Shown: positions 4,544-60,391 of the stretch, in pieces
Layout of the letters: each line of letters starts with the position of its first letter
Numbering within the stretch: position 1 is the first letter of the stretch
Assembly (NCBI GenBank): GCA_965261975.1
Contig: CBDHEC010000056.1
Location: forward strand, 96,001-160,000
DNA: 64,000 bases
Direction of reading: 5' to 3'
From: Alphaproteobacteria bacterium
GTDB lineage: Bacteria > Pseudomonadota > Alphaproteobacteria > UBA6615
Position numbers and translations under genes: made by a program
The notes under the pieces: generated by a model
Seen by the model: the letters and a program-made list of their open reading frames with translations, nothing else
Told to the model about the DNA's origin: nothing
The model's database searches: none

Positions 4544-5965
4544 TCAGGCGGCGGGGTCGAGAGCATCGGTTTTTCCGTCGGGCGCATCTATACCGGCGTA
4601 GAGCCGGTCGCGCAGGCCCGCGCCGTTGACCTCGCACATCGATCGCAACTCACCGTTGATCGGAACCTGGAAGGCGCACTGGGCGACGCGTTCACGCCCG
4701 GCGGGCGTGTCGAGTTCATCGGCGCTCATGAAATGATGGGCGACGACGGAGAAACGGTGCAGCTGGGTTCGGCCGGTCAGGGCCCGCAGGGCAAATCGCA
4801 TCGGCCGGTCGGGATCGAACCGCCGGGCCCAGCCCCAGCCCGTCGCGGGAACATCCCAGAAGAAGAAACGCGGCGCGCGAAACAGCATGCCGATGAGCCG
4901 CGCGGCGGCCTCCGACGGCCGGTCGGCGCGAAAGGTAGCACCGGCAAAACTGGCGAACAGCCGGTCGAGGAAGCGCCGGTCGCGCACGCTGCTCTCGGGG
5001 CTGAGGGGGACGAAGCGGGGGCCGGTGTCCACCTCGGCGGTCGTGCCGATCACGAAGCGGCTGCAGTCGGGGTGGGCCATGAACCACTGGTTGGCGGTGA
5101 GCCGGTCGCGGTTGGTTTCCTCGATCGACAGGCCGCGTTCGATTTCGGCCCACAGGGCCTCGGCGGTGATCCGGCCGATGCCGTCTTCTGTGCGGCCGAC
5201 ATGGGCCACGGGCAGCAGGCCGACCATGCGGAACACGTCGGCGTTGGCCTGGGCGAAGGCCACGATGTCGCCCACCTCGGGCAGATTGTCTTGTGTCACG
5301 GTGACCGTGCTGGCCACCCGCAGTGTGCGGCCGGTCTCGCGGCGGACCCGGCGGATCATGGCGACGAACCGCGCGCGCAAATCCATCAGCTCGGCCTCGC
5401 GGGTTGCGTACTTGAACTCCCGGTCGCGGCGCCCGCGTTGGGTGGTGTCGATGTGGAGGCTGAGTTCTTCCAGCCCGCCCTCGACCATCAGGCGCTTAAG
5501 CAGGTCCGGGTCGCGCAGGAAACCGTCGCCATGGCTCATCAGCATCGGGATCAGCTCGATGTCGCGCGCGTGGCGCAGAATCTCGATCACGTCTTCGGCG
5601 GGTCGCAGCGCGACCTCGCCGTCGGTCAGCTGCACGTTGCCCCAGGGGCCGAGCGCGGCGCGCAGCAGGTCGAGCTGCGCCTTGACGTCGGCCAGCGGCA
5701 GTTCCGGGGTGCGGTTGGCGTCGGCCCCCAGATAGCAGCCGCGGCAGGCGAAGTCGCATTTCGGCATCACGCCGATGGTCGCCCCGCAGCCTTCCTCGTG
5801 GCGGCCATACATCTGGTTGGCGGTCCGGAAACGCGGGTCGAGCCGCGCCCATGCCGCGTCCAGGCTGTCGCGTGTCTCGCGCGAGACCGGCCTGCGCAAC
5901 AGCCGCCAAAGGCGCGCCGCGCTGACAGGACGGTTGTGAGAGGAAGTGGTCCCGAGGAAACTCAT
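4544..5965 (-). CDS. radical SAM domain protein of unknown function
   Basis: CxxxCxxC motif (CDFACRGC); LTDGE at the GGE-motif position; additional C-terminal Cys residues. Confidence 0.85.
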   Translation of the reverse strand: MSFLGTTSSHNRPVSAARLWRLLRRPVSRETRDSLDAAWARLDPRFRTANQMYGRHEEGCGATIGVMPKCDFACRGCYLGADANRTPELPLADVKAQLDLLRAALGPWGNVQLTDGEVALRPAEDVIEILRHARDIELIPMLMSHGDGFLRDPDLLKRLMVEGGLEELSLHIDTTQRGRRDREFKYATREAELMDLRARFVAMIRRVRRETGRTLRVASTVTVTQDNLPEVGDIVAFAQANADVFRMVGLLPVAHVGRTEDGIGRITAEALWAEIERGLSIEETNRDRLTANQWFMAHPDCSRFVIGTTAEVDTGPRFVPLSPESSVRDRRFLDRLFASFAGATFRADRPSEAAARLIGMLFRAPRFFFWDVPATGWGWARRFDPDRPMRFALRALTGRTQLHRFSVVAHHFMSADELDTPAGRERVAQCAFQVPINGELRSMCEVNGAGLRDRLYAGIDAPDGKTDALDPAA

Positions 5966-6079: not shown

Positions 6080-6787
6080 TTACGACGCGGGCCCCGGCAG
6101 GGTGATGCCGTAGCGCCAGCGTTCGATGGTCACGTCTGAGAACACGCCGCCATAGTTGAGCGGTTCGCCTTCCCAGAATTCGTCACAGGCCGCGCGGTCG
6201 GGATATTCCATGATCATCATCGAGCCGATCATCTGGCTGCCATCGTCGTTGAACATGGGCCCGCGGGCCACGTAACGATCCATCACCGAGGCCTGATACT
6301 TGTGATGGGCCTCGGCAACCGCGGCGCGCTTCGCCTCGGAATCCTCGCCGTCCATCGCGGTGACCACGAACTGCTCCCAGCCTTCGGTGCGCGGATAGTC
6401 GGACCAGCGCAGATCCATCGACGACGACCAGCGGGTGATCGATATCTCGCCGAAGGCGCCGGCCTGGGTGTAGCCCTCGTTGTCCATCCAGGCCTGGGCG
6501 GCCGCCTTGTCGGGTGCGTCGATGAGCGCCATCGCCCCGGCCGGGGCGGAACCGTCATCGGTCAGCAGGGGCCCGGAGAAGCGGATCTGGTTCTGATGGG
6601 CGCGCAGATAGGCCTGGTGGGCGTCCATCGCCGATTCACGCAGTTCGAGCCCGCCATCGGCCTTGAAATAGCCCTTGCAGATCCAGCTCGGGCTCTTGGT
6701 CCGGTAATATTCGTCGAGTTCGGCCTCGGAAAGGCCGTAGCGCGGATCGCCGGGCAGGGCGCCGGACGGATTGTTGGGATCGGACAT
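6080..6787 (-). CDS. protein with tandem YciI-like domains
   Basis: Two R-x6-H...GP repeats (RESAMDAHQAYL...SGPL; RAAVAEAHHKYQ...RGPM). Start re-called at ATG 6787, downstream of a GGGGAA SD-like sequence. Confidence 0.78.
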   Translation of the reverse strand: MSDPNNPSGALPGDPRYGLSEAELDEYYRTKSPSWICKGYFKADGGLELRESAMDAHQAYLRAHQNQIRFSGPLLTDDGSAPAGAMALIDAPDKAAAQAWMDNEGYTQAGAFGEISITRWSSSMDLRWSDYPRTEGWEQFVVTAMDGEDSEAKRAAVAEAHHKYQASVMDRYVARGPMFNDDGSQMIGSMMIMEYPDRAACDEFWEGEPLNYGGVFSDVTIERWRYGITLPGPAS

Positions 6788-6952
6788 CGTGCTGGTTCCC
6801 CCTGATTGAGTGATGTTGGCCGCATGGTCGCCGCTGACGTGGCCAAACACAAGGCGTCCGGCCGCAACCCACATATGTGGAATCTGGAGATTCGCCCGTC
6901 GGGTCCTTTCCCGTCTAAGCTGGGGTGCAGCACAACAAGGGGAGGACACATC

Positions 6953-7477
6953 ATGGCACGCACATTCCGTCGTGTGGTCACGGGCCACAACGCCGCCGGC
7001 AAGTCGATCATCTGGAAGGACGGTGATGCCCCCCAGACCATCGAGCCATTGCCGGGCCTGTTCCTGCACGAATATTGGGAGACGACGGCACCCGCCGACA
7101 ACACCGGCGAGACGGACACGGCAATTCGTGAGAATTCCATCGAGCCCCATGATCCCAACGGGACGATTTTCCGGGTCGTCGATTTCCCGCCTGACGAGGC
7201 CTGGAAGGGGGCCGACGTCGGCGCGGCCTTCGACGAGATGGGCTCGGGCGCGGCCCATGACGGTGATTCCGAGACGGATGGCATGCACGAGACCCAGACG
7301 ACCGATTTCGCCATCGTGCTCGAGGGCGAAATGTGGGCGGTCATGGAGGAGGGCGAGACTCTCCTGAAGGCGGGCGACGTGCTGGTCCAGCGCGGCACCA
7401 ACCACGCCTGGTCGAACCGGTCGGGCAAGAATGCCGCGATTGCCTTCGTGCTGATCGGCGCGAAACCGCGGAGCTAG
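6953..7477 (+). CDS. cupin domain protein
   Basis: RRVVTGHNAAGKS N-terminus; MHETQTTDFAIVLEGE...GDVLVQRGTNHAWSN cupin motifs; GGAGG SD before ATG 6953. Confidence 0.88.
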   Translation: MARTFRRVVTGHNAAGKSIIWKDGDAPQTIEPLPGLFLHEYWETTAPADNTGETDTAIRENSIEPHDPNGTIFRVVDFPPDEAWKGADVGAAFDEMGSGAAHDGDSETDGMHETQTTDFAIVLEGEMWAVMEEGETLLKAGDVLVQRGTNHAWSNRSGKNAAIAFVLIGAKPRS

Positions 7478-7481
7478 CCGA

Positions 7482-7874
7482 ATGACCGCAAAACTCCGAC
7501 ACTTTGCCCTGTCCGTTCCTGACCCCCAGAAGGCTGCGGCGTTCTATGAGAATGCGCTGGGCATGACCCGGGTGGGCGAGAACGACCATCCCGGCGCCAC
7601 GGCGGTGTATCTCACCGACGGCACGGTCAATCTGGCATTGCTGCGCTACAAGACCGAGGAGGCCGCGGGCGGCGACCCGGAAAAGTTCGGCGTGCATCAC
7701 TTCGGTTTCATCGTCGATGACGTCGAGGCCGCCCAGGGCGAGATCGAGGCGGCGGGCGGCAACTGGCTGATGGGCGAGGCGAAGGACGCGGGCGCGTTCT
7801 ACGAGATCAAGTACCGCGACCCGGACGGGGTGATCTTCGACATCAACGAGGGCGGCTGGAAGACGGAGGGGTAG
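7482..7874 (+). CDS. VOC/glyoxalase family protein
   Basis: LRHFALSV...FYENALG, GVHHFGFIVDD and YRDPDG motifs. Confidence 0.88.
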   Translation: MTAKLRHFALSVPDPQKAAAFYENALGMTRVGENDHPGATAVYLTDGTVNLALLRYKTEEAAGGDPEKFGVHHFGFIVDDVEAAQGEIEAAGGNWLMGEAKDAGAFYEIKYRDPDGVIFDINEGGWKTEG

Positions 7875-7888
7875 GGCGTTTGGATGCT

Positions 7889-9487
7889 CTAGTTGATGAA
7901 CTTTAGCCCAAACAAGATCTTCAATATCTTTTGAACATTTTTTCTACAGGCATCTACATCTGCGTCTGAGACAGTAGTACTTGCTCGTTCATGTATAATT
8001 TTGTTTCTCATTTCATAATAGTGTTTGGCTTTTTCTAGTAATTCATCCGGAATATCTATTTTTGACGATACTTCTTTTATTACTTTGTGACGGCTTTTAA
8101 ACAAATCCCTGATTCGACCATCGGAGTATTGCTGCTGTGGAAAGAGGTCAGATCGGTGGACTATGAACTCTTTGAGAGAGATTTCGAAATTGCTGTCGAG
8201 CAAAATTAACGACATCCGGTTTCTGGTATCAAATTTCTACCTTGAAACGACATCCACAGCGCCAATTGCTTCAATGAGACCCAGTGTCCAAGGCATCTTG
8301 TCGAGCTGCTTTTTATTCTTTTCCCTCAGGTGTTCGATCTGTTGTTTTCTTACCTTCGGTAGAGGTGGAAGGCTGATTTTCTGACTATTTGTTATTTGAG
8401 CTTTTGGGATTTTTGTAATCTTACCTTGCGTGTGTCTAAACACCTTGGCGTCCCACTCATGCTTAAGTCGCCGTGAGAGTTTTGAAAAATGAGCTACGAG
8501 TTGGATAAGGGTTGGTCGTATTTTTTGGAATGCAAGGTGATCGTAGTTGATCCCATTCTTGCTGCTGTTCCAGGGCATCAAAATGGCTGGCCCTTCTAAC
8601 CTCACGATAACGCGGCACAGAGAAGCATCGGGATGAGGTACTCCTGCCTCGGAAGTAACAAAATATCCCACTTCTCGTGTTCTCAGTTCCTTAACTATCA
8701 TCCTATTGTTACAATAAAAGTAAACGCCATAATTGTCTGCATCTGGTTCACGGTCTTTTATTAGGCCAGCAGTAATATCGGCTGTAATATGCTGACTATC
8801 ATTTAGAGGTATTTTGATTTTGCAGTTTTGAGGTGCGTATGACGGTGGGTAAGACCAGTTGTCGTATTTTGTTTTTTTTATCTTTGTCCCATTTACGACT
8901 AGGGAGCATTTTGAGCCGAGGAAGTGAGAGTATGTTTCACCCAAATGTCTAATAATCTCTGGTTCGTCGGACTCATCGAAAGTCTTTCTTAGGTTCGAAA
9001 TATGAACTTGTGTTGTGCCTGCAGAGAGATTTGGAATCTCGAATGCTGCGATTTCCCAGTCATTCGTTTCTAGCCAATCATCTTCGATATCTACTTGAAA
9101 ACTTGAGCCTGATTTAGGGCGCGTCTTAATCTGGATGGTGCGACCTAACGCAACTCCTGCTCGCTTACTCCCAACACCAAAAATTCCAATCGATTGAGCG
9201 TTCGGATCGTTGCCGCTGCCACCTGGCGCGACTAGGAGCCTCAGATCACTTTGTTTAACGCCCCCCGCATTGTCGGTTACGGTGATCGTCTGGTGATCGG
9301 AATCTAGTACTACATTGATCTCCAGTTTCTTCTTCTGGTTTCCAAGCAGCCAAATATCGAACGCGTTGTCGACTAATTCACACAGTCCAGTTTTTAGGTC
9401 GTAGTCAGCGATTATCGACCAAAACATTCTTTTTTCGGGAGTCGCATCGATCGGTGCAATTTCCGTTTTTCGAGTTACAGCATTCAT
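7889..9487 (-). pseudogene. MORC/GHKL-type ATPase fused to a C-terminal HEPN-like domain, interrupted by one in-frame TAG (8237-8239); AT-rich foreign gene
   Basis: GHKL motifs ELVDNAFD, DNAGG, GIFGVGSK and GTT; S5-like GVYFYCNNRMI. ORFs 8237-9487 and 7889-8215 share a frame, separated by TAG plus 7 sense codons. The C-terminal part has LILLDSNFEISLKE and RNKIIH (Rx4H). Confidence 0.75.
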
Positions 9488-9861
9488 GGGGGACCCCGAA
9501 CTTCAGTGCTGTGAAAGCGTTGCGATAGTAAGAACGTGAACACAACTTTATCGAGAGTTTCGATTCCTGAATATCCAGAGTAGGTCGTATTCGAGCTCCC
9601 ACCAACCCAAATTCCTCTAGCGAAAAGTGCTGCATCGGGCGTCGGCTGCGAGCGTCTCAGCCAATTCGATACCGGACACGAGGGCGCCGAAGGGGCCGTC
9701 TGGCGGATCGACGGAGAGCTTGCTCATACACCGATACTAACACCGACAGACACCGCCGGTTCGCCCCCCGAACTTCAACCTGTCGCCGGGCGTTTCCCTG
9801 TGTGGGGTGGTCGCGGTAGTCTGGTGCCAACAAACAAGATTACCTCCCGGGAGTAAAGTTG

Positions 9862-11232
9862 ATGGCGCGCACATTGATCAAGGGCGGCTGGGTCGTGTCG
9901 ATGGACGATGCGATCGGCGATATTCGCGGCGGCGACGTGCTGATCGAGGACGACCGGATCGTCGAGGTCGGCCGCAACATCGACGCCGGCGATGCGGAAG
10001 TGATCGACGCGTCCAACATGATCGTCAGCCCCGGCATCGTGAATGCGCACGAGCACACCTGGCAGACCGGGGTGCGCGGGGTCGTCGCCGACTGGACGAT
10101 GTTCGAATACTCCACCCTGATGCACGCGACGTCGGTGCCTCACTTCACGCCCGACGACATCCGCCTGGCGAACCTCTGCGGCGCGCTGAACCAGATCAAC
10201 TGCGGCAGCACCACGCTGTTCGACTGGCATCACTGCAACGCCACGACGGATCACACGGACGCCGCGATCGACGCGCTGGAGGAATCGGGCATCCGCGCCG
10301 TCTATGGTCATGGCCAGACCAAGACCGCGTCCAAGCCCGGTGAGCCGCCGTTCAACGAGACCCCGCACTCGCGCGAACGGGTCGAGCGGCTCCGCAAGGG
10401 GCGGCTCGCTTCGGACGACGGGCTGATCACCATGGCCATATGCATCCAGGGGATGGGTTTCTCGGTCTGGGAATGCTTCGAGCACGACGTTCGTCTGGCC
10501 CGGGACATGGGCCTCTACTGGTCGAACCACACGGGTGCACAGGGAATTCCGCTGTTCTCCGAGGGTTCGGTGCACAAGCTGAATGATCTCGGCCTGCTCG
10601 GTCCGGATGCCGACTTCGTCCATGCGACCAACCTGACCGACGACGAGATGAAGATGATCATCGATGCCGGCGGCTCGATCACCGTCGCGGCCGAGTGCGA
10701 GAGCAACTTCGGCCATGGCAACCCGGTGACCGGCCGGGTGCTCGGTTTCGGCGGTACGCCGGCCTTCGGGGTGGATCTGCAGTCGAACGTCTCCGGCGAC
10801 ATGTTCTCGGTCGTGCGTTATGCGCTGCAGTTCGAGCGAGCCATGTACACGGACGATCGGCCGCGCCCGACCAAGGCGATGCCCGAGCATCTGAAAACGC
10901 GTGTCGCGCTTGAATGGGCGACGATCGACAACGCCCGGGCGCTCGGGCTTGACGACCGGATCGGCTCGCTGACGCCCGGCAAGCAGGCGGACGTGATCCT
11001 CGTGCGTGGCGACGACCTCAACACCTGCCCGGTGCATGACCCGGTCCAGACGCTGATCTTCATGGCCACGCCGTCGAACGTGGACACGGTCTTCGTCAAC
11101 GGCGAGGTGAAGAAACGCGACGGCAAGCTGGTCTACCCGGAAGCCGCGCTGCGTGAGACCCTGGGCAAGCTCGCCGAGTCCGGCCGCCGTATCCTCGATG
11201 CCGCCGGTGTGATGCAAGCGGCGGCGGAATAG
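9862..11232 (+). CDS. metal-dependent amidohydrolase (MTA/SAH deaminase / AtzA-like superfamily)
   Basis: PGIVNAHEHTW HxH motif, FVHAT, GVD and GSLTPGKQAD. Confidence 0.88.
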   Translation: MARTLIKGGWVVSMDDAIGDIRGGDVLIEDDRIVEVGRNIDAGDAEVIDASNMIVSPGIVNAHEHTWQTGVRGVVADWTMFEYSTLMHATSVPHFTPDDIRLANLCGALNQINCGSTTLFDWHHCNATTDHTDAAIDALEESGIRAVYGHGQTKTASKPGEPPFNETPHSRERVERLRKGRLASDDGLITMAICIQGMGFSVWECFEHDVRLARDMGLYWSNHTGAQGIPLFSEGSVHKLNDLGLLGPDADFVHATNLTDDEMKMIIDAGGSITVAAECESNFGHGNPVTGRVLGFGGTPAFGVDLQSNVSGDMFSVVRYALQFERAMYTDDRPRPTKAMPEHLKTRVALEWATIDNARALGLDDRIGSLTPGKQADVILVRGDDLNTCPVHDPVQTLIFMATPSNVDTVFVNGEVKKRDGKLVYPEAALRETLGKLAESGRRILDAAGVMQAAAE

Positions 11233-11255: not shown

Positions 11256-12422
11256 GTGACCGCCAACCGATGGATGGTGCTTGGTGCGCTTTTCCTGGCG
11301 CGCTCGGCGCTGGGCTATCACTTCCAGTCCGTCGCGTCGGTCTCGCCGCTGCTGGTCGAGGACCTTGGTATCGACTTCACCGCAGTTGGTACCCTGATCG
11401 GTCTTTTCAGCCTGCTCGGGGTTCTGACGGCCCTGCCGTCGGGCTTCCTCGCCCAGCGCTTTGGCGAGCGCCGGGTATGCCTGTCCGGCCTCGCGATGAT
11501 GACGGCGGGCGGCTTCGTGATGTGGCTGGGCGACGACTTCGCCACGATCAGTGTCGGCCGGATGATCGCCGGCACCGGTGGGGTGGTGATCACGGTCGTC
11601 ATGGTGAAGATCGTCGGCGACTTGTTCGAAGGTAAGGAAGTGGTCACCGCCATGGCCATCCTGATGAACAGCTGGCCGGTGGGTATCGCCATCGGCCTCT
11701 ACACCCAGGGCGCCATGGCCGAAGCCTGGGGCTGGCAGGCGGTTTTCCTGACGGCGGGTATCGGCTCTCTCGTCGGCATGTTGCTGGTCGCCATCCTGTA
11801 CCGGCCGGCGGCACGTAACGTCTCGCGGCCTCTGCAGCGCCTGGCGATCACCCGGGCCGAGGCCACCAGGGTCTCGCTCGCGGGGATCGTCTGGGTGCTC
11901 TACAACGCCGGTTACCTGATGGTGCTGTCCTTCGGGCCCGCCATGCTGGTGTTGCGCGGCATGGATGTCGTGGCGGCGGGCCTGCTGCTTGCCAACGCCA
12001 CCTTTGTCTACATGTTCGCGATTCCGCTGGGGGGCTGGGTATCCGAGAAGCTGGCACGGCCGAACCTGGTCATGGTGGCCTGCTTTGCGCTCGGGGCGTT
12101 GATGGTCGCCCTCGTGCCCCTCGTCGACGCACCTCTGCTGCTGTTCATCATGGCGGCGATCTTCATCGGCATACCCACCGGCAACGTGATGGCGCTGACC
12201 GTCGAGACGGTACGGGCCGAGCACCGCAACACGGGCACCGGCCTGTATCACACCTGGAACCATGCGGGCCTGTTCGTCGGGCCGGCGCTCGCGGGTTGGA
12301 TCGTCACCCGGACCGGTGACCCGGCGACGGCCATGTTCTTTGGTGGCGTGACAATGGTCCTCGCCATCGTCGCGCTGGGGGCGCTGCGGTTCTTGCAATG
12401 GCGCGAAGCCCGTGCCGTCTGA
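11256..12422 (+). CDS. MFS transporter
   Basis: About 12 hydrophobic segments; GFLAQRFGERR and GWVSEKLARP loop motifs. Confidence 0.88.
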   Translation: MTANRWMVLGALFLARSALGYHFQSVASVSPLLVEDLGIDFTAVGTLIGLFSLLGVLTALPSGFLAQRFGERRVCLSGLAMMTAGGFVMWLGDDFATISVGRMIAGTGGVVITVVMVKIVGDLFEGKEVVTAMAILMNSWPVGIAIGLYTQGAMAEAWGWQAVFLTAGIGSLVGMLLVAILYRPAARNVSRPLQRLAITRAEATRVSLAGIVWVLYNAGYLMVLSFGPAMLVLRGMDVVAAGLLLANATFVYMFAIPLGGWVSEKLARPNLVMVACFALGALMVALVPLVDAPLLLFIMAAIFIGIPTGNVMALTVETVRAEHRNTGTGLYHTWNHAGLFVGPALAGWIVTRTGDPATAMFFGGVTMVLAIVALGALRFLQWREARAV

Positions 12423-13098
12423 ACCGAGCCTCGGTGTCGTCATTCCCGCGTTGAATGTGGGGGCGGGCCTCGCGCGTACGCTCGAAGGCCTGGCGGCGGC
12501 GCGGGACATCTTCGATCTGGACATCCTGGTGGTGGATGGCGGCTCCGATGACGACACGGTCGCGGTGGCCAAATCTCTGGGCGCGCGGGTGATCGAGGCG
12601 CCGAGAGGCCGCGGCACCCAGCTGGCCGCCGGGGCCGACCAGGTGCGTGGCGACTGGCTGTTGTTCCTGCATGCCGACACGGTTCTCGGGGCGGGCTGGG
12701 CGGTCGAGCTGGCGGCGTTCATGATCGCCGAGCGCCACCGCGCCGCCTATTTCCGCTTCCGGCTCGACGATGATGCGCCCGGCGCGCGACGGATCGAGCG
12801 GCTGGTGGCGTGGCGTTGCCGGGTGCTGGGCCTGCCCTATGGCGATCAGGGCCTGGCGATCCCGCGCGATCTCTACACGGCGTTCGGCGGCTATCCCGAC
12901 CAACCGCTGATGGAGGATGTCTATCTTGCGCGTAGGATGGGCCGCAGCCGGCTGGCGGGGCTGGAAACGGCGGCGTTGACGTCCGCCGTGCGTTATCGCG
13001 AAGGTGGCTACTGGCGCCGCCCATCGCGGAACCTGTTCTGCCTGTTTCTGTATCTCATGGGCATGCCGGCGCGGATGATTGACCAGATCTACAGATGA
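12412..13098 (+). CDS. GT2 glycosyltransferase, TIGR04283-like (rSAM/selenodomain- or arsenosugar-associated transferase 2)
   Basis: VVIPALN, VVDGGSDD, LFLHADT, LPYGDQGL and PLMED motifs. Confidence 0.85.
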   Translation: MPSEPSLGVVIPALNVGAGLARTLEGLAAARDIFDLDILVVDGGSDDDTVAVAKSLGARVIEAPRGRGTQLAAGADQVRGDWLLFLHADTVLGAGWAVELAAFMIAERHRAAYFRFRLDDDAPGARRIERLVAWRCRVLGLPYGDQGLAIPRDLYTAFGGYPDQPLMEDVYLARRMGRSRLAGLETAALTSAVRYREGGYWRRPSRNLFCLFLYLMGMPARMIDQIYR

Positions 13099-18912: not shown

Positions 18913-19566
18913 ATGAAGTTATTCGGCTACTGGCGCTCACTCGCCGCGTTTCGAGTACGTATCGCGCTCAACCTCAAGGGCCAGCCCTTCGAGGTCGTCT
19001 CGACCGACCTGATCAAGGGCGAGCAGTTCGACCCGGAATATCTCAAGATCAACCCCCAGGGCGTTGTGCCGGCGCTGGTGACCGATGACGGGAACGCGCT
19101 GACCCAGTCGATGGCGATCCTCGAATATCTCGACGAGACCTATCCCGAGCCGGCCCTGCTGCCGACCGATGCCATGGCCCGTGCGCGGGTCCGGTCGCTG
19201 TGCATGATCCTGGTGGCGGACATGCACCCGCTGGTGGTGCCGCGGATCCGCAAATACATCACCCAGGATTGGGGCCATAGCGAGGAAGAACTCGCCGCGT
19301 GGATCGGCAACTGGACCAAGCTCGGGCTTGCCGCGATCGAGAAGCACCTGGTCGAAGACGGTACGTCGGGCAAATATTGTGAAGGCGATCAGGTGACCCT
19401 GGCCGACCTCTGCCTGGTGCCCCAGGTGGGTGCGGCGACCCTGTTCAAGATCCCGCTGGACGACTATCCGAACTGCGTGCGCATCTTCAAGACATGCATG
19501 GAGAACCCGGCCTTCTTCGACGCGCGGCCGCAGGCCCAGCCGGACTTCCCCGAGGACATGAAGTAG
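18913..19566 (+). CDS. maiA: maleylacetoacetate/maleylpyruvate isomerase (GST zeta class)
   Basis: YWRSLAAFRVRIALNLKG, NPQGVVP, QSMAILEYLDE, ADLCLVPQ and PQAQPD. Confidence 0.85.
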   Translation: MKLFGYWRSLAAFRVRIALNLKGQPFEVVSTDLIKGEQFDPEYLKINPQGVVPALVTDDGNALTQSMAILEYLDETYPEPALLPTDAMARARVRSLCMILVADMHPLVVPRIRKYITQDWGHSEEELAAWIGNWTKLGLAAIEKHLVEDGTSGKYCEGDQVTLADLCLVPQVGAATLFKIPLDDYPNCVRIFKTCMENPAFFDARPQAQPDFPEDMK

Positions 19567-19578
19567 AAAACGGAAACC

Positions 19579-19600
19579 GGGCGGCTCAGCCGCCCTTTTT
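19579..19600 (+). terminator. intrinsic terminator after maiA, overlapping the stop codon of the convergent gene
   Basis: GGGCGGC-TCA-GCCGCCC followed by TTTTT. Confidence 0.6.
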
Positions 19601-20209
19601 CTGAGCCCCCGCCGCGTCCATCAGCTGTTCCAGCACCTCGTAGGGCTGGGCGCCGACGACGCCCTTGGCGTCGGCTACATAGGTCGGAACGCCGGTCACA
19701 CCATACTGGCGGGATTTTTCCCAGTCCGCGTCGATCGCGGCCTCGAAGGTGCGTTTCTCCAGCACCTCGCGCGCGGCGGCACCATCGAGCCCGACCCCTT
19801 CGGCGATCTCCACCAGGAGATCGGCATCGCCGATGTTCTTGGCGTCGACGAAATAGGCCTCGTAGAGCTTCATGTGGATGGCATCGCCGCCCGGCTGGGT
19901 GTCGGCCCACTTGCCGAGCTCCTGGGCCAGCCGGCTGTTGTAGGTGTGGGTGCGCTTGCCGTAGGGCAGGCCTTCCTCGTCCATCCGCGCCTTCATGTTC
20001 TGGTACATGGCGTCGAGATCGACATCGCGGCCGGCGAAAAGCTGTTCCAGCGACTGGCCGTCGGCCGGCGTGTCGGGATGCAGCGGGAAGTGAACGGTCT
20101 GGATGTCGACGTCGTAGGCCTGGCGGAGTTTTTCAACACGCACGGTGCTGAGGTAACACCAGGGTCAAACGTAGTCGGCGAAGACCTCAAGGGTCACGGG
20201 ATCGGACAT
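19586..20209 (-). CDS. DsbA/FrnE-family thioredoxin-fold selenoprotein (UxxC: UPWC)
   Basis: From ATG 20209 the frame reads MSDPVTLEVFADYV-TGA-PWCYLSTVRVEKL..., in frame with ORF 19586-20143. The TGA sits at the first Cys of the family CPWC motif. cis-Pro motif GVTGVPT and GAQPY are present, with an AAGGA SD upstream. Confidence 0.88.
20119..20163 (-). promoter_or_regulatory. bacterial SECIS-like hairpin immediately 3' of the UGA
   Basis: Lower stem CCUGGUG/CGCCAGG; upper stem UCAGCAC/GUGUUGA; apical loop CGUGC beginning 20 nt after the UGA. Confidence 0.7.
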
Positions 20210-20304
20210 GGTTGGATTCCTTCGTGTGAGACGGCCTGCACCATAGCAGAGACAGGGCCGGGCGCGATAACATTGCCGGGACCTCTCACACCCCGGAGCC
20301 CGAT

Positions 20305-20748
20305 ATGACCGACCACACGATCCCGTCCCGCAAGCTCACCCATGATGGCATCCGTGCCCTAATTGATGCTGCCGTGGCCAAGGCCGACGAGATGGGGGTG
20401 CCCATGGGCATCGCCGTGGCCAATGACGGCGCGCGGATCGTCGGCTATCTCCTGATGGACGGCGCGCGCGTGCTGGCCCAGGACTCCGCCAGCGCCAAGG
20501 CGATGACGGCGGCGAGCCACCGCATGCCGACCCACGCCATCGATTACAATATCGGCATGGGCCTGTCGGTCTCGACGCAAGGCAAGGTGCTGCCGCTGCG
20601 CGGCGGCGTGCCGATCATCATCGACGGCTATTGCGTCGGCGGCATCGGCTGCGGCTCGGGCACGGGCGAAGAGGACCTCGTGGTGGCCAAGGCCGCGCTG
20701 GCGGCGATCGGCGCGGAGATTCCCGACGACGACGCCAGCGAGGGCTAG
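20305..20748 (+). CDS. GlcG/HbpS-family heme-binding protein
   Basis: IAVANDG...MDGA...ASAKAMTA; GGVPIIIDGYCVGGIGCGSGTGEED. Confidence 0.85.
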   Translation: MTDHTIPSRKLTHDGIRALIDAAVAKADEMGVPMGIAVANDGARIVGYLLMDGARVLAQDSASAKAMTAASHRMPTHAIDYNIGMGLSVSTQGKVLPLRGGVPIIIDGYCVGGIGCGSGTGEEDLVVAKAALAAIGAEIPDDDASEG

Positions 20749-21930
20749 GCGGCGTCGCGCCGGACCATCACCACGAAGAAAAGCCAGGACAGGGTGGTGC
20801 AGCCGAGCATCAGCAGGCCGAGCTGCAGGAAAGAGGTCTGGACGAGGCTGGCCACCGCCAGGGTGCTCGCGAAACCGGCGCTCATCTGAATGAAGCCGCC
20901 CAGCGCCGCGGCGGAACCGGCGGTTGGAGGTGCGACCGCCGTGAGGGCGCCCGCCAGGCTGTTCGGCACCAGGAAGCCCGAGCCCCAGGAGTAGATGAAC
21001 ATCGGCACGATCAACGTGTAGGGCGTGTCGAGACCCATGAGCGCCAGCACCACCGTCGCGCCCGTTCCGGCAATCGCCAGGAGGCCGCCGATCGAGATCA
21101 TCCGGGCCCGCGAGACCCGCTGCGCCAGCCGGCTGGAGATATAGTTGCCGATGATGTAGCCGGCCGGCGTCGACAGGATGAAGAAACCGAACGCCTCGGG
21201 GGGTGACGCCCATGACCACGATGAAGGCGATGGGAGTCCCGGCGATGAAGGCCTGGAAGGTGGCGCCCATCGCGCCGGTGCTCAGGCTGTAGCCCATGAA
21301 ACGGGTCATGCGCGCGAGGCGCAGATAGGTCAGCGCGAGAGCGCCGGGACGGGTGTATTTGCGGGCCTCGGGCGGCAATGTTTCGCGCAGCGTCATCAGT
21401 GTCGCGAGCAGCACGCCGGCGCCGAGCAGCGCGGTGGCCAGGAAATTCGACTGCCAGCCGAAACGCACCTCGAGCTGCCCGCCGATCAGCGGCGCGACCA
21501 TGGGGGCAACCGCGAGGGACATGCCCAGATAGGCCATGGCCCGCGTGGCGGCGGGCCCGTCGGTGGTGTCGCGCACGATGGCACGCGAAATGACGATGCA
21601 GGTGCAGCCACCGATTGCCTGAACCACCCGGGCGGCAATGAGGAAGGTGATGTTCGGCGCCAGCGCGCAGGCCAGGCCGCCGAGGGTGAAAAGGACCAGA
21701 CCCGTGATCAGCGGCCGGCGCCGTCCGATCGCATCGGACAGCGGGCCGACCACCAGCTGCGCCAGCGCGAAGGCGCCGAGATAGACAGACACGGTCATCT
21801 GGGCGAGCGCCTGGCTGGTGTCGAGATGTTCCGCGATGGACGGCAGGGACGGCAAGAAGATCGTGATGGCCACCTGGCTGGCCACCATCAGCGACACCAG
21901 CAGGGCGATCGGGGCAGGCTGATCCGTCAT
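20745..21930 (-). pseudogene. Bcr/CflA-family MFS efflux transporter with a +1 frameshift (possibly a sequencing error)
   Basis: IFLPSLP, GPLSDAIGRRR and LRETLP. Removing one base from the G6 run at 21198-21203 restores GVTPEAFGFFILS... into the frame of ORF 20745-21101. Confidence 0.8.
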
Positions 21931-47330: not shown

Positions 47331-48008
47331 TCAGCTTGTCGGCGCCGACTGGCTGGAGCCCGTCGGCTGCTCGCCGGCGTCCATCTGGTCGGCGAACTTA
47401 TGGTTTCGGTCGCGGTGGCCTGCCTCATCCTCGCGCACCACGAGCACCACGTCACGCAGGGTCGCGTCGGCCGGAAGGTTCCAATAGTCGATCGCGATCT
47501 GGGGGGCGGCCACGTTTTCCTGCCGCCCGGCGTCGATCTCGCCCAGATAATGGGTGTAGCTGATGACGGCCTCCTCCTCGAAATAGCCGACCACACGATG
47601 GGCGGTCCGGGGCGCGAAGAGATAGAGGAGGAAGTAGAAATTGTAGAAGATCGCCTGCGTGATCATCACCACGAAACGCTCGAACGTCGTGGGCTGTGCG
47701 ACCTGGACGAAGGTCATCAGGTGCATGCGCTCATTGTCGGCTTCCTCCAGCAATTCGCGGATCCAGCCCTGGTCGTCACGGATATGACGTAACGCTTTCA
47801 GATGCTGCAGCAGTCCACCGACCATGCCCGGGACGGCGGCGACGGTCTCCAGCACGATGGCGCGGTGGCCGTAGCGCCTGGCGAAGAACCAGTCTGCGAA
47901 GAAACGCAGGAACTTCACCAGAGCGAAGGCGAAGTGGTCGCTGAAGCCGTGGGGTAAGCGGTGCGGTGACGCGTACTCGGCGACCGTAACCTGGGTGTCT
48001 GCGGTCAT
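47331..48008 (-). CDS. aox: alternative (ubiquinol) oxidase
   Basis: Di-iron motifs [27 protein letters not shown] and REDEAGH. Confidence 0.93.
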
Positions 48009-48121
48009 CTCACGTTGCTCCTGTCGGTGCCACTGGGACGAACGCAAATCTTCAATCATCAAGTGGGGTGCACTCGACCTCTTGGCAAGGCGGGTGGTGC
48101 GGCGTGAGGTCGCGCGCGAAA

Positions 48122-48859
48122 TCATTCAATCGACGTCGCGACCTCCAGCAAAATCGCCGTCAGTTCATCGGGTGCCGACAATTGCGGCGCGTGGTCCGTG
48201 TCCAGCGTGTGGAGCGTTTCGCAGGGGGTTTCGGTGTACATGCGCTTTTGCAACTCGTTGAAGACGGACCGGTCCTGCAGTGTCTCGATGTAGATTCGCG
48301 GCACGCGCGCGAAATTTTCGTCGCCGAGGTGCAGCCTGGAGCGCCGCCCGCCTTCGGGTTGCGGTGTGAGTTGGCTGGCGGCGATCTTCGCGTCGGCCGG
48401 GTCGGCGGTGTTGTAGAACACGTTGACGGCGGATGCCGGGTCGATCATCGACAGGTGGCCGTCATCGGAATAGCTCACCCGGGCGTGGGCGCCGGTCATC
48501 CAGTCCTCCCAGGCCCGGTCGTAGAAGTCGACGATGGATTCCCCGTCCGGCAGCAGGAAGGCGCAGAGATAGACCGCGACCGAGATGGCGTCGGGCCGCA
48601 GTTCCGAGGTTTGTGCGGCCACCGTACCTCCCATCGAATGGCCGACCAGAATCACGGGAGCGGCCGCCCCGTCGATCAACGATGCCACATGCTCGGCATA
48701 CAGCATCGTGGTGACGTCGCCCGGAGCGGTGTCGTCGTGGCCGTTGCCGGGCAGGTCCACGGCAATGGCCGTATGCCCGTTGGCTTCGAGCAGCGGCACG
48801 ACACGCGACCAGGCCCATGCGCCCTGCCAGGCCCCGTGCACCAGAACGAAGGTCGCCAT
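48122..48859 (-). CDS. alpha/beta hydrolase (methylesterase/SABP2-like)
   Basis: [24 protein letters not shown] and DHAP. Confidence 0.88.
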
Positions 48860-58195: not shown

Positions 58196-58285
58196 GGAGG
58201 GGTGGCCGAGTGGCTGAAGGCGCACGCTTGGAAAGCGTGTAAACGGGCGACCGTTTCGAGGGTTCGAATCCCTCTCCCTCCGCCA
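58196..58285 (+). tRNA. tRNA-Ser (anticodon GGA)
   Basis: GGAGGGG acceptor, anticodon arm CACGC-TTGGAAA-GCGTG, long variable arm, GGTTCGAATCC T-arm and encoded CCA. Confidence 0.97.
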
Positions 58286-59165: not shown

Positions 59166-59240
59166 TGACCTGCTCCCCTGAATTCGGTCCAGGGAAATTG
59201 AGAGAGTCCGGCTAACCTGAACCTCGAGGAGGAGGAGACG

Positions 59241-59519
59241 ATGAGCCGGAAGCGATACACCCCAGAACAGATTATCGGGATGCTGCGGGAGGCCGAGGTG
59301 CGCCTGTCGCAGGGCGAGACGGTCGGCGTGATCTGCCGAGGTCTGAGTATCTCGGAGCAGAGTTATTACCGCTGGCGTCGCGAGTATGGCGGATTGCGAG
59401 TGGACCAGGCGAAGCGTCTGAAGGAACTGGAGAAGGAGAACGCGCGGCTTCGGCGGGCGGTCTCTGATCTGACGCTGGACAAGCTGATCCTGAAAGAGGT
59501 TGCGGAGGGAAACTTCTAA
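59241..59519 (+). CDS. IS3 transposase OrfA (HTH)
   Basis: [10 protein letters not shown]...[15 protein letters not shown]...[10 protein letters not shown]; GGAGG SD. Confidence 0.92.
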
Positions 59520-60391
59520 GCCCCGCACGCCGTCGTGCCGCGGTCGATCACGTGCAGAGCCGGTTCGATGTATCGGAACGCCGTGCCTGTCGTGTGATTG
59601 GCCAACACCGCTCGACGCAGCGCCGCACAGCGGTCCGTCGTGACGATGAAGACGCCCTGACGGCTGCGATTGTTGATCTGGCATCCAAATATGGCCGTTA
59701 CGGCTATCGCCGGGTCGCGGCGCTGCTGCGTGCCCAGGGGTGGCACGTCAACGTCAAACGGGTGTGGCGTATCTGGCGGCGTGAGGGGCTGAAGGTGCCC
59801 TCAAAACAGCCCAAACGCGGGCGGTTGTGGCTCAATGACGGGTCGTGTGTTCGGCTCAGGCCGAGCTGGCCGAACCATGTCTGGGCCTACGACTTCGTCC
59901 AGGATCGCACGCATGACGGCCGTGCTATCCGGATGCTGACGGTGATCGACGAGTACACCCGCCAGTGCCTGGCCATCGAGGTTGCCCGCCGCCTGCGTCA
60001 CGACGATGTGCTGCAGGTGCTGGCCGAGCTGTTCACGCGGCATGGGCCGCCGGATCACATCCGCTCGGACAACGGCAGTGAGTTCACTGCCATCGCCGTG
60101 CGCGATTGGCTGCCGAGGCTTGGCGTGAAGACGCTGTTCATCGAACCCGGGTCGCCCTGGGAGAACGGCTACAACGAGAGCTTCAATGGCAAGCTGCGCG
60201 ACGAGCTGCTCAACGGCGAGATCTTCTACACGCTACAGGAGGCGACGGTGCTCATCGAACGCTGGCGCCAGCACTACAACACCGTCAGGCCGCACAGTTC
60301 GCTCGGCTACAGGCCACCCGCGCCAGTCACGGTCTTGCCGCCAATGGCCAGATCGAACTACCCTCAAACCGTCCGGACCCTCTCACAGTGA
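59510..60391 (+). CDS. IS3 transposase OrfB (DDE integrase core), expressed via -1 frameshift
   Basis: [33 protein letters not shown] and RPHSSLGY; G_GGA_AAC heptamer at 59507-59513. Confidence 0.9.

What the first reader, a model, noticed from the sequence alone, without database searches (positions are those of the whole stretch)
19586..20209. Hidden selenoprotein: DsbA/FrnE-like oxidoreductase with UPWC and a SECIS-like hairpin
Seen: the ORF-track protein lacks its active site. Extending the frame gives MSDPVTLEVFADYV*PWCY, with TGA at 20165-20167 replacing the first Cys of CPWC. A two-stem hairpin follows (CCUGGUG/CGCCAGG; UCAGCAC/GUGUUGA; loop CGUGC). Established: bacterial Sec insertion uses UGA plus an immediately downstream SECIS, and UxxC DsbA-like selenoproteins are known from environmental bacteria. 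Inference: this organism uses Sec, and standard pipelines will truncate the gene.
Basis: partly seen in the sequence, partly recalled or inferred. Interest (0 to 1): 0.78.

Follow-up and report, generated by a model that had tools for sequence, protein, structure and literature searches.

The report
FrnE-type DsbA-like selenoprotein gene
A small cytoplasmic disulfide oxidoreductase gene carries an in-frame UGA that almost certainly encodes selenocysteine, so gene callers cut off its active site; this selenoprotein family has been known since 2005, so the case is genuine but ordinary.

Summary
On the minus strand, ATG 20209-20207 opens a 207-codon frame with one in-frame TGA (20167-20165). Reading it through gives a complete DSBA domain (PF01323, E 6e-36). 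Full-length homologues have DYVCPWCY where the window has DYV-TGA-PWCY. Among 80 related genomic loci, 19 carry TGA and 61 carry TGC/TGT at this codon. A 7-bp hairpin with loop CGUGC (20151-20133) meets all four published bacterial SECIS criteria. It pairs 7/7 in 19 of 20 TGA genes and in 0 of 61 Cys genes, has one compensatory C-G to U-A change, and freezes two synonymous sites (Leu CTC, Arg CGT). In two betaproteobacterial relatives the TGA gene lies beside selA, selB and a tRNA-Sec gene. The window holds no selA/B/C/D, and the rest of this genome could not be searched. All 30 database relatives of at least 71% identity are N-terminally truncated, so pipelines do miss the gene. The nearest solved structure is Deinococcus FrnE. 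The 'DsbA-like (COG2761, UxxC)' selenoprotein family was described in 2005 and is listed in a 2026 review. Verdict: a real, correctly interpreted new member of a known kind.

The parts
19586..20209 (-). Complete coding sequence of the FrnE-type DsbA-like selenoprotein: 207 codons including Sec15, plus the terminal TGA at 19588-19586.
   Evidence: Translation with TGA=U. PF01323 DSBA covers residues 6-197 over profile positions 1-190 of 191, E 6.3e-36. Aligns end to end with full-length Cys homologues.
20207..20209 (-). True start codon ATG.
   Evidence: An ATG lies exactly 14 codons upstream of the TGA in 16 of 20 TGA-bearing genes. In-frame stops lie just upstream of it in L001, L012 and L014. 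Amino-acid conservation begins here.
20217..20222 (-). Shine-Dalgarno-like AAGGAA, 8 nt before the ATG.
   Evidence: Read directly from the sequence. Similar AGGAA/GGAA strings lie upstream of the ATG in L001, L002, L004-L008. Not tested statistically.
20165..20167 (-). In-frame TGA, read as selenocysteine 15 (first position of U-P-W-C).
   Evidence: The aligned codon is TGA in 19 of 80 related loci and TGC/TGT in 61 of 80.
20156..20158 (-). Cys18 codon (TGT), the resolving cysteine of the UxxC motif and the only Cys in the protein.
   Evidence: C18 is invariant in alignment A3.
20133..20151 (-). Conserved SECIS core: 7-bp stem UCAGCAC/GUGUUGA with 5-nt apical loop CGUGC (loop at 20144-20140). 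The loop starts 20 nt after the UGA.
   Evidence: Folding. 99.2% of cells paired, with one compensatory CG to UA pair. 7/7 pairs in 19 of 20 TGA genes against 0 of 61 Cys genes. Leu20 CTC and Arg24 CGT are the only 2 of 43 amino-acid-invariant, at least 4-fold degenerate codon columns that use a single codon. Meets the bSECIS constraints quoted in PMC13188914.
20119..20163 (-). Extended two-stem structure. The outer stem CCUGGUG (20163-20157) pairs with CGCCAGG (20125-20119). It is lineage-specific, not a conserved part of the element.
   Evidence: Present in the window's minimum-free-energy fold. 7/7 pairs only in the window, L001, L003, L004, L005 and L008. 62.7% of cells paired overall and no covariation.
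20141..20143 (-). GTG that gene callers take as the start of the truncated 185-aa ORF. It is the GUG inside the SECIS apical loop.
   Evidence: ORF list (19586..20143, GTG start). The five truncated database proteins that were aligned all start at this position, with MR(V/I/D)EK.
18913..19566 (+). Convergent neighbour: a glutathione S-transferase gene. This is conserved context, not shown to be functionally linked.
   Evidence: Pfam GST_N and related families. An orthologue lies next to the Sec gene in 11 of 13 alphaproteobacterial TGA loci L001-L013.
20305..20748 (+). Divergent neighbour: an HbpS-like (PF03928) gene. Context only.
   Evidence: Pfam, E 3.8e-28. Found in 7 of 13 alphaproteobacterial TGA loci.

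Best explanation
The gene at 19586-20209 (minus strand) encodes a 207-residue cytoplasmic FrnE-type DsbA-fold thiol-disulfide oxidoreductase. Its attacking active-site residue is selenocysteine (U15-P-W-C18).

Shown:
- The frame is one continuous coding frame across the UGA.
- The UGA sits where homologues have the first Cys of CPWC.
- A 7-bp stem with loop CGUGC starts 13 nt after the UGA, so the loop starts 20 nt after it. It is conserved and covaries only in UGA-bearing genes.
- The modelled fold places U15 at the N-terminus of helix 1.

Inferred:
- SelB-GTP carrying Sec-tRNA(Sec) binds the apical loop (the G-U or G-G at loop positions 2-3).
- SelB delivers Sec when the UGA reaches the A site. 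Elsewhere the same codon terminates translation, including at this gene's own end.
- The enzyme cycles between selenolate/thiol and a U15-C18 selenenylsulfide while reducing or isomerising substrate disulfides.
- It lacks the C-terminal CxxxxC tail of Deinococcus FrnE, so it must be recycled by an external reductant, such as thioredoxin or glutathione. The conserved adjacent GST gene is only a hint.
For: 1. Coding continuity. PF01323 is matched end to end only in the read-through protein. The 14 codons upstream of the TGA show synonymous variation with conserved amino acids in 20 genes: Leu-8 uses 5 codons, and Glu, Phe and Val vary at third positions.
2. Sec/Cys pairing. DYV-TGA-PWCY aligns with DYVCPWCY. 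19 of 80 loci carry TGA and 61 of 80 carry TGC/TGT. The TGA loci come from independent assemblies labelled Alpha-, Beta- and Gammaproteobacteria.
3. SECIS.
   - Inner helix: 99.2% of cells paired, with a CG (11 sequences) to UA (7 sequences) compensatory pair.
   - 7/7 pairs in 19 of 20 TGA genes and 0 of 61 Cys genes (mean 3.7 of 7).
   - Cys genes L017 and L037 encode nearly the same peptide but use CGC/ATC, which breaks the stem.
   - Only Leu20 CTC and Arg24 CGT are single-codon among 43 amino-acid-invariant, at least 4-fold degenerate columns.
   - All four published bSECIS constraints (PMC13188914 Fig. 2 legend) are met: loop 5 nt and stem 7 bp; G at loop position 2 followed by U or G; 20 nt from UGA to loop; -7.8 kcal/mol for the core and -20.2 for the full structure.
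4. Sec machinery beside the gene in relatives. In L029, selA, selB and tRNA-Sec (RF01852, 72.7 bits) end 46 nt before the TGA-gene's ATG. In L022, selA, selB and tRNA-Sec lie about 2.1 kb away.
5. TGA is otherwise a stop here. 17 of 45 Pfam-supported ORFs in the window end in TGA, and so does this gene.
6. Fold and family. Deinococcus FrnE is the best solved-structure hit by sequence (5cnw, E 2e-23, CPWC aligned). By structure the best hits are 5cp1 (TM 0.81) and 3gl5 (TM 0.83) (model pLDDT 85.8).
7. The family is in print as a selenoprotein family.
Against: - No selA, selB, selC or selD is in the 64-kb window. This rests on ARAGORN and Rfam over the whole window, Pfam on 54 + 49 ORF segments, and tblastn with L029 SelA/SelB over all six frames.
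- The rest of this genome could not be searched. None of the 13 close alphaproteobacterial loci has sel genes within about 10 kb.
- No other selenoprotein candidate was seen in the window (a crude scan).
- The hairpin alone is not statistically striking (z -1.78).
- A mutually exclusive alternative hairpin (alignment columns 8-13/19-24) is equally well kept: 99.1% of cells paired.
- No Rfam family matches the element.
- Selenium incorporation itself is not demonstrated.
Confidence: 0.9

Rival explanations
1. The TGA is a genuine stop. The locus is either a decaying pseudogene or makes only the 185-aa product from GTG 20143, which lacks strand 1 and the redox motif.
For: Table-11 ORF calling gives exactly this product, and public databases hold it in that form. 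No Sec machinery was found in the window. A neighbouring transporter gene in the window is frameshifted, so broken genes or assembly errors do occur here.
Against: - The 14 upstream codons are conserved as protein, with synonymous changes and a conserved ATG, in 20 genes from three proteobacterial classes.
- The TGA itself is conserved in 19 independent species-level assemblies.
- The GTG lies in the hairpin loop and has no obvious ribosome-binding site before it.
- In the model, a DsbA fold without strand 1 and the N-terminus of helix 1 would be incomplete.
Confidence: 0.03
2. The UGA is read through, but not as selenocysteine. Near-cognate Trp or Cys would be inserted, or the codon would be reassigned. 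The hairpin would act only as a read-through stimulator.
For: Selenium insertion was not measured. The UGA is followed by C in all 20 genes. From recall, not from a call, UGA-C is a weak termination context. The genome's sel genes were not seen.
Against: - TGA ends 17 of 45 supported ORFs in the window and this gene itself, so there is no reassignment.
- The position is the catalytic Cys of CxxC, where Trp would inactivate the enzyme.
- The hairpin satisfies the SelB-type bSECIS model, including the loop G.
- Two relatives place the gene next to selA-selB-tRNA-Sec.
Confidence: 0.05
3. A sequencing or assembly error turned TGT/TGC into TGA in this window.
For: A one-base homopolymer length difference breaks the neighbouring transporter gene in the window relative to L002.
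Against: The same TGA, with the same downstream hairpin, is present in 19 other independently assembled genomes.
Confidence: 0.01

Closest known systems
DsbA-like selenoprotein family, 'form 1' (COG2761 / PF01323, UxxC). First reported from Sargasso Sea metagenomes in 2005 and listed in the 2026 review of prokaryotic selenoproteomes.
   Same: Same Pfam domain (PF01323), the same UxxC redox motif with Sec at the first position, a bSECIS hairpin directly downstream with a G in a small apical loop, and widespread Cys homologues.
   Different: I could not compare with the published example sequences (AACY01178397, NIP15863.1), because they were not available to the tools. Identity with that exact subfamily is therefore inferred from the domain, the motif and the COG name, not from an alignment. 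The published tables I read name Deltaproteobacteria and Clostridia as hosts in cultured genomes. The members found here are marine Rhodospirillaceae-type plus Beta- and Gammaproteobacteria MAGs.
FrnE of Deinococcus radiodurans (DR_0659; PDB 5cnw, 5cp1), a cytoplasmic DsbA-family disulfide reductase/isomerase.
   Same: Best solved-structure match by sequence (E 2e-23, residues 2-196 against 9-214) and by fold (TM 0.78-0.81). It has the same CP(W/F)C-type motif at the N-terminus of helix 1 and no signal peptide (PMC8945050 passages).
   Different: The window protein has Sec in place of the first Cys. At 207 aa it also lacks the C-terminal tail with the CxxxxC motif (residues 239-244 of drFrnE) that is proposed to regenerate the active site. 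Cys18 is its only cysteine. About 30% identity.
SCO1869, a putative DsbA oxidoreductase of Streptomyces coelicolor (PDB 3gl5).
   Same: Highest structural similarity (TM 0.83, 33% identity).
   Different: It is a Cys protein, and its function is uncharacterised as far as the PDB title says.
E. coli fdhF-type bacterial SECIS and the bSECISearch consensus model.
   Same: A stem-loop inside the coding region just 3' of the UGA, with a small apical loop carrying G followed by U or G, and spacing within 16-37 nt.
   Different: There is no sequence resemblance and no Rfam family match. The bulged U of the E. coli element (recalled, not from a call) is absent. The lower stem is not conserved.

Membership tests
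DsbA-like selenoprotein (form 1, PF01323/COG2761, UxxC) | DSBA-like thioredoxin domain (PF01323) | tested here: met
   E 6.3e-36, 124 bits against a cutoff of 25.6, profile positions 1-190 of 191.
DsbA-like selenoprotein (form 1, PF01323/COG2761, UxxC) | In-frame TGA aligned with the redox Cys of Cys-containing homologues (Sec/Cys pair), giving UxxC | tested here: met
   TGA at the first Cys of CPWC. 61 of 80 loci have TGC/TGT there.
DsbA-like selenoprotein (form 1, PF01323/COG2761, UxxC) | TGA-containing orthologues in other organisms | tested here: met
   19 of 80 loci. In the quick tree, all 20 TGA genes fall in one 33-row subfamily, SH-aLRT 98.
DsbA-like selenoprotein (form 1, PF01323/COG2761, UxxC) | Sec-decoding machinery (selA, selB, selC, selD) in the same genome | not testable with these tools
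Two relatives (L022, L029) have selA, selB and tRNA-Sec beside the gene. selD was seen nowhere.
DsbA-like selenoprotein (form 1, PF01323/COG2761, UxxC) | Selenium actually incorporated at the UGA | not testable with these tools
   Needs 75Se labelling or mass spectrometry.
Bacterial SECIS (bSECISearch consensus as quoted in PMC13188914, Fig. 2 legend) | Apical loop of 3-9 nt on an upper stem of 4-16 bp | tested here: met
   Loop CGUGC (5 nt) on a 7-bp stem.
Bacterial SECIS (bSECISearch consensus as quoted in PMC13188914, Fig. 2 legend) | At least one G in the first two loop positions, mostly followed by G or U | tested here: met
   The loop is C-G-U-G-C in the window and C-G-G-G-C in L009, L011, L014, L018 and L062. 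The G at position 2 is invariant in all 20.
Bacterial SECIS (bSECISearch consensus as quoted in PMC13188914, Fig. 2 legend) | [quoted passage not shown] | tested here: met
   20 nt (alignment columns 4-23). The alternative hairpin at columns 8-13/19-24 fails this test (10 nt) and has no G early in its loop.
Bacterial SECIS (bSECISearch consensus as quoted in PMC13188914, Fig. 2 legend) | Minimum free energy of -7.5 kcal/mol or lower | tested here: met
   Window: -7.8 for the core (columns 12-42) and -20.2 for the 66-nt stretch. Some relatives fall short for the core alone: -5.6 to -5.9 in L013, L014, L018 and L062, and -3.8 in L012.
Bacterial SECIS (bSECISearch consensus as quoted in PMC13188914, Fig. 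2 legend) | Binding by SelB | not testable with these tools
   Needs a binding or reporter assay.
FrnE subfamily of the DsbA family (cd03024, as described in PMC8945050) | [quoted passage not shown] | tested here: met
   U-P-W-C, with U in place of the first C.
FrnE subfamily of the DsbA family (cd03024, as described in PMC8945050) | Cytoplasmic, with no signal peptide | tested here: inconclusive
   Strand 1 of the fold starts at residue 5 of the model, which leaves no room for a signal peptide. No signal-peptide predictor was run.
FrnE subfamily of the DsbA family (cd03024, as described in PMC8945050) | Closest similarity to characterised FrnE | tested here: met
   E 2e-23. TM 0.78-0.81, the top hits.
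FrnE subfamily of the DsbA family (cd03024, as described in PMC8945050) | C-terminal CxxxxC motif (present in many members, not all) | tested here: not met
   The protein ends at residue 207, and Cys18 is its only Cys. PMC8945050 states that S. roseofulvus and D. maricopensis FrnE also lack the motif, so it is not strictly defining.
FrnE subfamily of the DsbA family (cd03024, as described in PMC8945050) | Assignment to CDD model cd03024 | not tested
   No CDD library was available.
Periplasmic DsbA (E. coli type) | Signal peptide, and partnership with DsbB | tested here: not met
   There is no N-terminal extension. Classical DsbA structures match far less well: TM 0.46-0.64 at 12-19% identity. 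No DsbB-type family was hit among the window ORF segments scanned.

The most novel reading that the evidence does not exclude
In some Betaproteobacteria the FrnE-type selenoprotein gene forms a compact selA-selB-selC-frnE(U) module. In L029 the tRNA-Sec gene overlaps the 3' end of selB and ends 46 nt before the selenoprotein gene.

The boldest reading not excluded has three parts:
1. This oxidoreductase, rather than formate dehydrogenase, is the cargo that keeps and spreads the Sec trait in these lineages.
2. That spread explains why one nearly identical SECIS is shared by Alpha-, Beta- and Gammaproteobacteria.
3. That spread also explains why Sec and Cys forms are interleaved within one subfamily.

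For the marine Rhodospirillaceae-type clade of the window, the gene would then be one of very few reasons to keep the whole Sec machinery.
Probability: 0.2. Interest if true: 0.45.

Novelty: new member of a known kind. Interest (0 to 1): 0.3.

Why it matters
**Annotation.** This gene is systematically mis-annotated. All 30 of the closest database proteins are N-terminally truncated, and the five that were aligned start after the TGA and so lack the active site. No NCBIfam model covers the family: the best hit scores 40.5 bits against a cutoff of 190. Selenoproteome and redox-enzyme counts for these marine Alphaproteobacteria are therefore too low.

**Biology.** The gene marks its host lineage as a probable selenocysteine user. 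It is also a clean natural example of an RNA element constraining codons, and even one amino acid (Val/Ile25), inside a coding region.

**Novelty.** It does not open a new question, because the family and the mechanism are established.

Tried and rejected
- **Rfam.** The gathering-threshold search of the whole window found only tRNA-Ser. The permissive search of 19900-20300 gave four chance-level hits, none a SECIS family.
- **Other selenoprotein genes in the window.** A crude scan looked for TGA flanked on both sides by high-GC3 frames. It gave 31 sites, none with a Cys-containing redox motif in a credible frame. It did not even recover the target TGA, whose upstream piece is short, so it is weak evidence.
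- **sel genes near the close relatives.** tRNA scans of the 19 TGA loci found tRNA-Sec only in L022 and L029. tblastn with L029 SelA/SelB against the window and all 80 loci hit only L022 and L029. Pfam on selected ORFs of L013, L014, L018, L035 and L062 found no sel genes.
- **L022, 7.9-10.0 kb.** The stretch between selA and the TGA gene gave no Pfam hit for 5 ORF segments, so its content is unknown.
Rejected as a conserved feature.
- **The alternative hairpin (columns 8-13/19-24) as the SECIS.** Rejected. It lies too close to the UGA (10 nt), has no G early in its loop and shows no double substitutions. Its conservation can follow from the conserved W-C-Y-L-S-T peptide: Cys genes average 4.75 of 6 pairs.
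- **Phylogeny.** The careful maximum-likelihood search did not finish in 300 s, so only the quick tree is reported. It cannot decide the number or direction of Sec/Cys switches: 4 changes on the tree, but only 1 forced by well-supported branches.
- **Query artefact.** The first query, P0001, carried an extra C-terminal residue because the terminal TGA was also translated. This affects trivially. The corrected 207-aa protein P0122 was used from then on.

Full report
**Observation**

The minus strand of 19586-20209 reads ATG (20209-20207), then 13 codons, then TGA (20167-20165). It continues in frame to a terminal TGA at 19588-19586. Table-11 ORF calling gives only a 185-aa ORF that starts at GTG 20143.

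The read-through product (207 aa, P0122) begins MSDPVTLEVFADYV-U-PWCYLSTVRVEK. It matches Pfam DSBA (PF01323) from end to end: residues 6-197 on profile positions 1-190 of 191, E 6.3e-36. NCBIfam has no model for it. The best hit is a 'thioredoxin-like (seleno)lipoprotein' family at 40.5 bits, against a cutoff of 190.

The z-score is only -1.78, and 7 of 200 shuffles fold as well.

**Homologues**

A search of the 5.8-billion-protein collection listed 120 best hits.
- The 30 hits with 71-92% identity are all 168-188 aa and cover 81-89% of the query.
- The 90 hits with 60-70% identity cover 93-100% of the query.

In an alignment of 15 of these hits, the five truncated ones start at MR(V/I/D)EK, just after the TGA. 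The ten full-length ones read MSxPxxLEVFxDYVCPWCYL over the window's upstream extension. The TGA aligns with the first Cys of CPWC.

**Genomic relatives**

- The aligned codon is TGA in 19 of them: L001-L014, L018, L022, L029, L035 and L062. Their records are labelled Rhodospirillaceae/Alphaproteobacteria, Gammaproteobacteria, Burkholderiales, Nitrosovibrio and Pseudomonadales.
- It is TGC or TGT in the other 61.

Upstream of the TGA, the 20 TGA genes (window included) keep the peptide while varying synonymous sites. An ATG lies exactly 14 codons upstream in 16 of 20, and in-frame stops sit just before it in three. Translation therefore runs through the TGA, and a sequencing error is excluded.

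TGA is otherwise an ordinary stop here. 17 of 45 Pfam-supported ORFs in the window end in TGA.

**The RNA element**

I aligned the 63 nt starting at the TGA in the 20 TGA genes.
- **Inner helix** (columns 17-23 with 29-35; window 20151-20145 with 20139-20133). It is paired in 99.2% of cells. Five pairs are invariant. One is compensatory: C-G in 11 and U-A in 7 of 18 distinct sequences. That swap couples a synonymous Ser change (AGC to AGU) to a Val-to-Ile change (GUU to AUU).
- **Outer helix.** It is paired in only 62.7% of cells and shows no covariation. It is 7/7 only in the window, L001, L003, L004, L005 and L008.
- **Control with Cys genes.** The inner helix has 7/7 pairs in 19 of 20 TGA genes (6/7 in L012). 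It has 7/7 in 0 of 61 Cys genes, where the mean is 3.7 and a single locus, L074, reaches 6/7. Cys genes L017 (YLSTPRIERLK) and L037 (YLNTGRIEKLK) encode almost the same peptide but use CGC and ATC, which breaks the stem.
- **Codon-level test.** I used 19 TGA genes, dropping L029 because an indel breaks the fixed register. 43 codon columns have an invariant amino acid of at least 4-fold degeneracy. Only two of them use a single codon in all sequences: Leu20 CTC and Arg24 CGT. Both lie in the inner stem. The other invariant Arg columns use mainly CGC or CGG.

The element meets the four constraints of the published bacterial SECIS model (PMC13188914, Fig. 2 legend, read as a passage):
- The loop is 5 nt on a 7-bp stem.
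- G is at loop position 2, followed by U or G.
- 20 nt separate the UGA from the loop.
- The free energy is -7.8 kcal/mol for the core and -20.2 for the extended structure.

A mutually exclusive hairpin (columns 8-13/19-24) is also 99.1% paired. It lies only 10 nt from the UGA, lacks an early loop G and shows no double changes. It largely follows from the conserved W-C-Y-L-S-T peptide. No Rfam family matches the region.

**Sec machinery**

The window contains only a tRNA-Ser(GGA) gene. Pfam on 54 of the 67 GC3-filtered ORF segments, plus 49 further segments that cover the gaps, found no SelA, SelB or SelD domains. tblastn with SelA and SelB from L029 found nothing in the window.

The window looks like ordinary alphaproteobacterial chromosome: rpoN, lptA/C, thrS-infC-rplT-pheST and lepA. 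The rest of the genome could not be searched, so 'this organism uses Sec' remains an inference.

Two relatives give direct support.
- **L029 (Nitrosovibrio MAG).** selA lies at 6374-7987. selB runs to 9903. A tRNA-Sec gene lies at 9859-9954 (ARAGORN; Rfam RF01852, 72.7 bits). The TGA-containing gene starts at 10001.
- **L022 (Burkholderiales MAG).** tRNA-Sec (4575-4668, 71.5 bits), selB and selA lie on the opposite strand, about 2.1 kb from the gene.

The hairpin in these two loci differs from the window's only by the compensatory pair and by one extra C-G pair at the stem base.

**Protein**

An AlphaFold2 model built from a 30-sequence alignment has mean pLDDT 85.8. It shows strand 1 at residues 5-11, the UxxC motif at the N-terminus of helix 16-31, a helical insertion, and the conserved Val174-Pro175 just before strand 176-179. 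This is the DsbA arrangement.

The best structural matches are Deinococcus radiodurans FrnE (5cp1, TM 0.81) and Streptomyces SCO1869 (3gl5, TM 0.83). Classical periplasmic DsbAs match much less well. By sequence, FrnE is also the best solved relative (E 2e-23), with CPWCY aligned.

[quoted passage not shown] Many, but not all, carry a C-terminal CxxxxC motif that regenerates the active site. The window protein has no such tail, and Cys18 is its only cysteine.

**Evolution and context**

A quick maximum-likelihood tree of 81 proteins, with the Sec/Cys column masked, was obtained. The careful search did not finish. The quick tree puts all 20 TGA genes in one 33-row subfamily with 13 Cys genes (SH-aLRT 98). 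The 14 closest Alphaproteobacteria form one TGA-only clade (SH-aLRT 99). The label changes 4 times on the tree, but well-supported branches force only 1 change.

Synteny is conserved among the alphaproteobacterial TGA loci L001-L013. The adjacent GST gene is present in 11 of 13 and the HbpS-like gene in 7 of 13. It is not conserved in L014 or in the Beta- and Gammaproteobacteria.

**Literature**

I read passages, not whole texts.
- PMC1088965 (2005) reports nine 'DsbA-like protein' selenoprotein sequences (COG2761, motif UxxC) from the Sargasso Sea, with predicted SECIS elements.
- PMC1794560 (2006) lists DsbA-like selenoproteins in four genomes.
- PMC5029168 (2016) counts 45 such genes in 41 organisms.
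- PMC13188914 (2026) lists 'DsbA-like protein form 1, PF01323, UxxC'.
- PMC8124441 describes selB-selC overlaps, including Gammaproteobacteria in which the selB stop lies at tRNA nucleotides 46-48. L029 shows the same arrangement.

Two full-text searches returned no paper whose listing or read passages mention a selABC-DsbA-like gene cluster. I did not read those papers in full, and supplements were not examined.

**Verdict**

The finding is real and correctly interpreted. This is an unannotated FrnE-type DsbA-like selenoprotein gene with a comparatively well-supported SECIS. It is a new member of a known kind. Only the presence of Sec machinery in this particular genome, and selenium incorporation itself, remain unshown.

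Noticed in passing
window 20748-21900 (minus strand), break near 21200: A major-facilitator transporter gene (PF07690 matches only profile positions 4-235 of 347) is frameshifted in the window. The orthologue in L002 is one open frame. The two differ by a single-base length difference in a C-run. This could be an assembly error or a real pseudogene.
   Followed up: partly
L029 6374-10609: A compact selA-selB-tRNA-Sec-frnE(U) arrangement in a Nitrosovibrio MAG. The tRNA-Sec gene (9859-9954) overlaps the last 45 nt of selB, and the selB stop TGA sits at tRNA nucleotides 46-48. PMC8124441 describes the same position for Dyella and Luteibacter. The selenoprotein ATG follows 46 nt after the tRNA.
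   Followed up: partly
L022 4575-10603: In a Burkholderiales MAG, tRNA-Sec (4575-4668) overlaps the selB 3' end. selB and selA lie on the minus strand, and the TGA-bearing DsbA-like gene lies on the plus strand about 2.1 kb from selA. The stretch between them (about 7.9-10.0 kb) gave no Pfam hit.
   Followed up: partly
window 20171-20176 (codons Asp12 and Tyr13, just upstream of the UGA): Asp12 (GAC) and Tyr13 (TAC) are the only 2 of 24 amino-acid-invariant two- or three-fold degenerate codon columns that use a single codon in all 19 TGA genes. This may reflect a context requirement just 5' of the Sec codon.
   Followed up: no
window 20141-20143: The GTG that gene callers use as the start of the truncated ORF is the G-U-G of the SECIS apical loop. 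This explains why the aligned truncated database entries begin at the same residue.
   Followed up: yes
window 59202-60388, beside tRNA-Ser(GGA) at 58196-58285: Two overlapping ORFs carry a transposase HTH domain (PF01527) and integrase core domains (rve, rve_3). From recall this resembles an IS3-family insertion sequence. It lies about 0.9 kb from the only tRNA gene in the window.
   Followed up: no
window 18913-19566, and L001-L013: A glutathione S-transferase gene lies next to, and convergent with, the selenoprotein gene. It is kept there in 11 of 13 alphaproteobacterial TGA loci. This may hint at a glutathione-linked redox partner.
   Followed up: partly
window 47334-48125 (minus strand): A bacterial alternative oxidase gene (PF01786, E 2e-83).
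   Followed up: no
L029 13023-13362 (minus strand) and 12125-12583: An Rfam cspA thermoregulator match (84.1 bits against a gathering score of 78), and a rhodanese-domain gene about 1.5 kb downstream of the selenoprotein gene.
   Followed up: no
window 6083-7543 (minus strand): A 487-codon stop-free segment in which the YCII domain is matched twice. Its real gene boundaries were not worked out.
   Followed up: no
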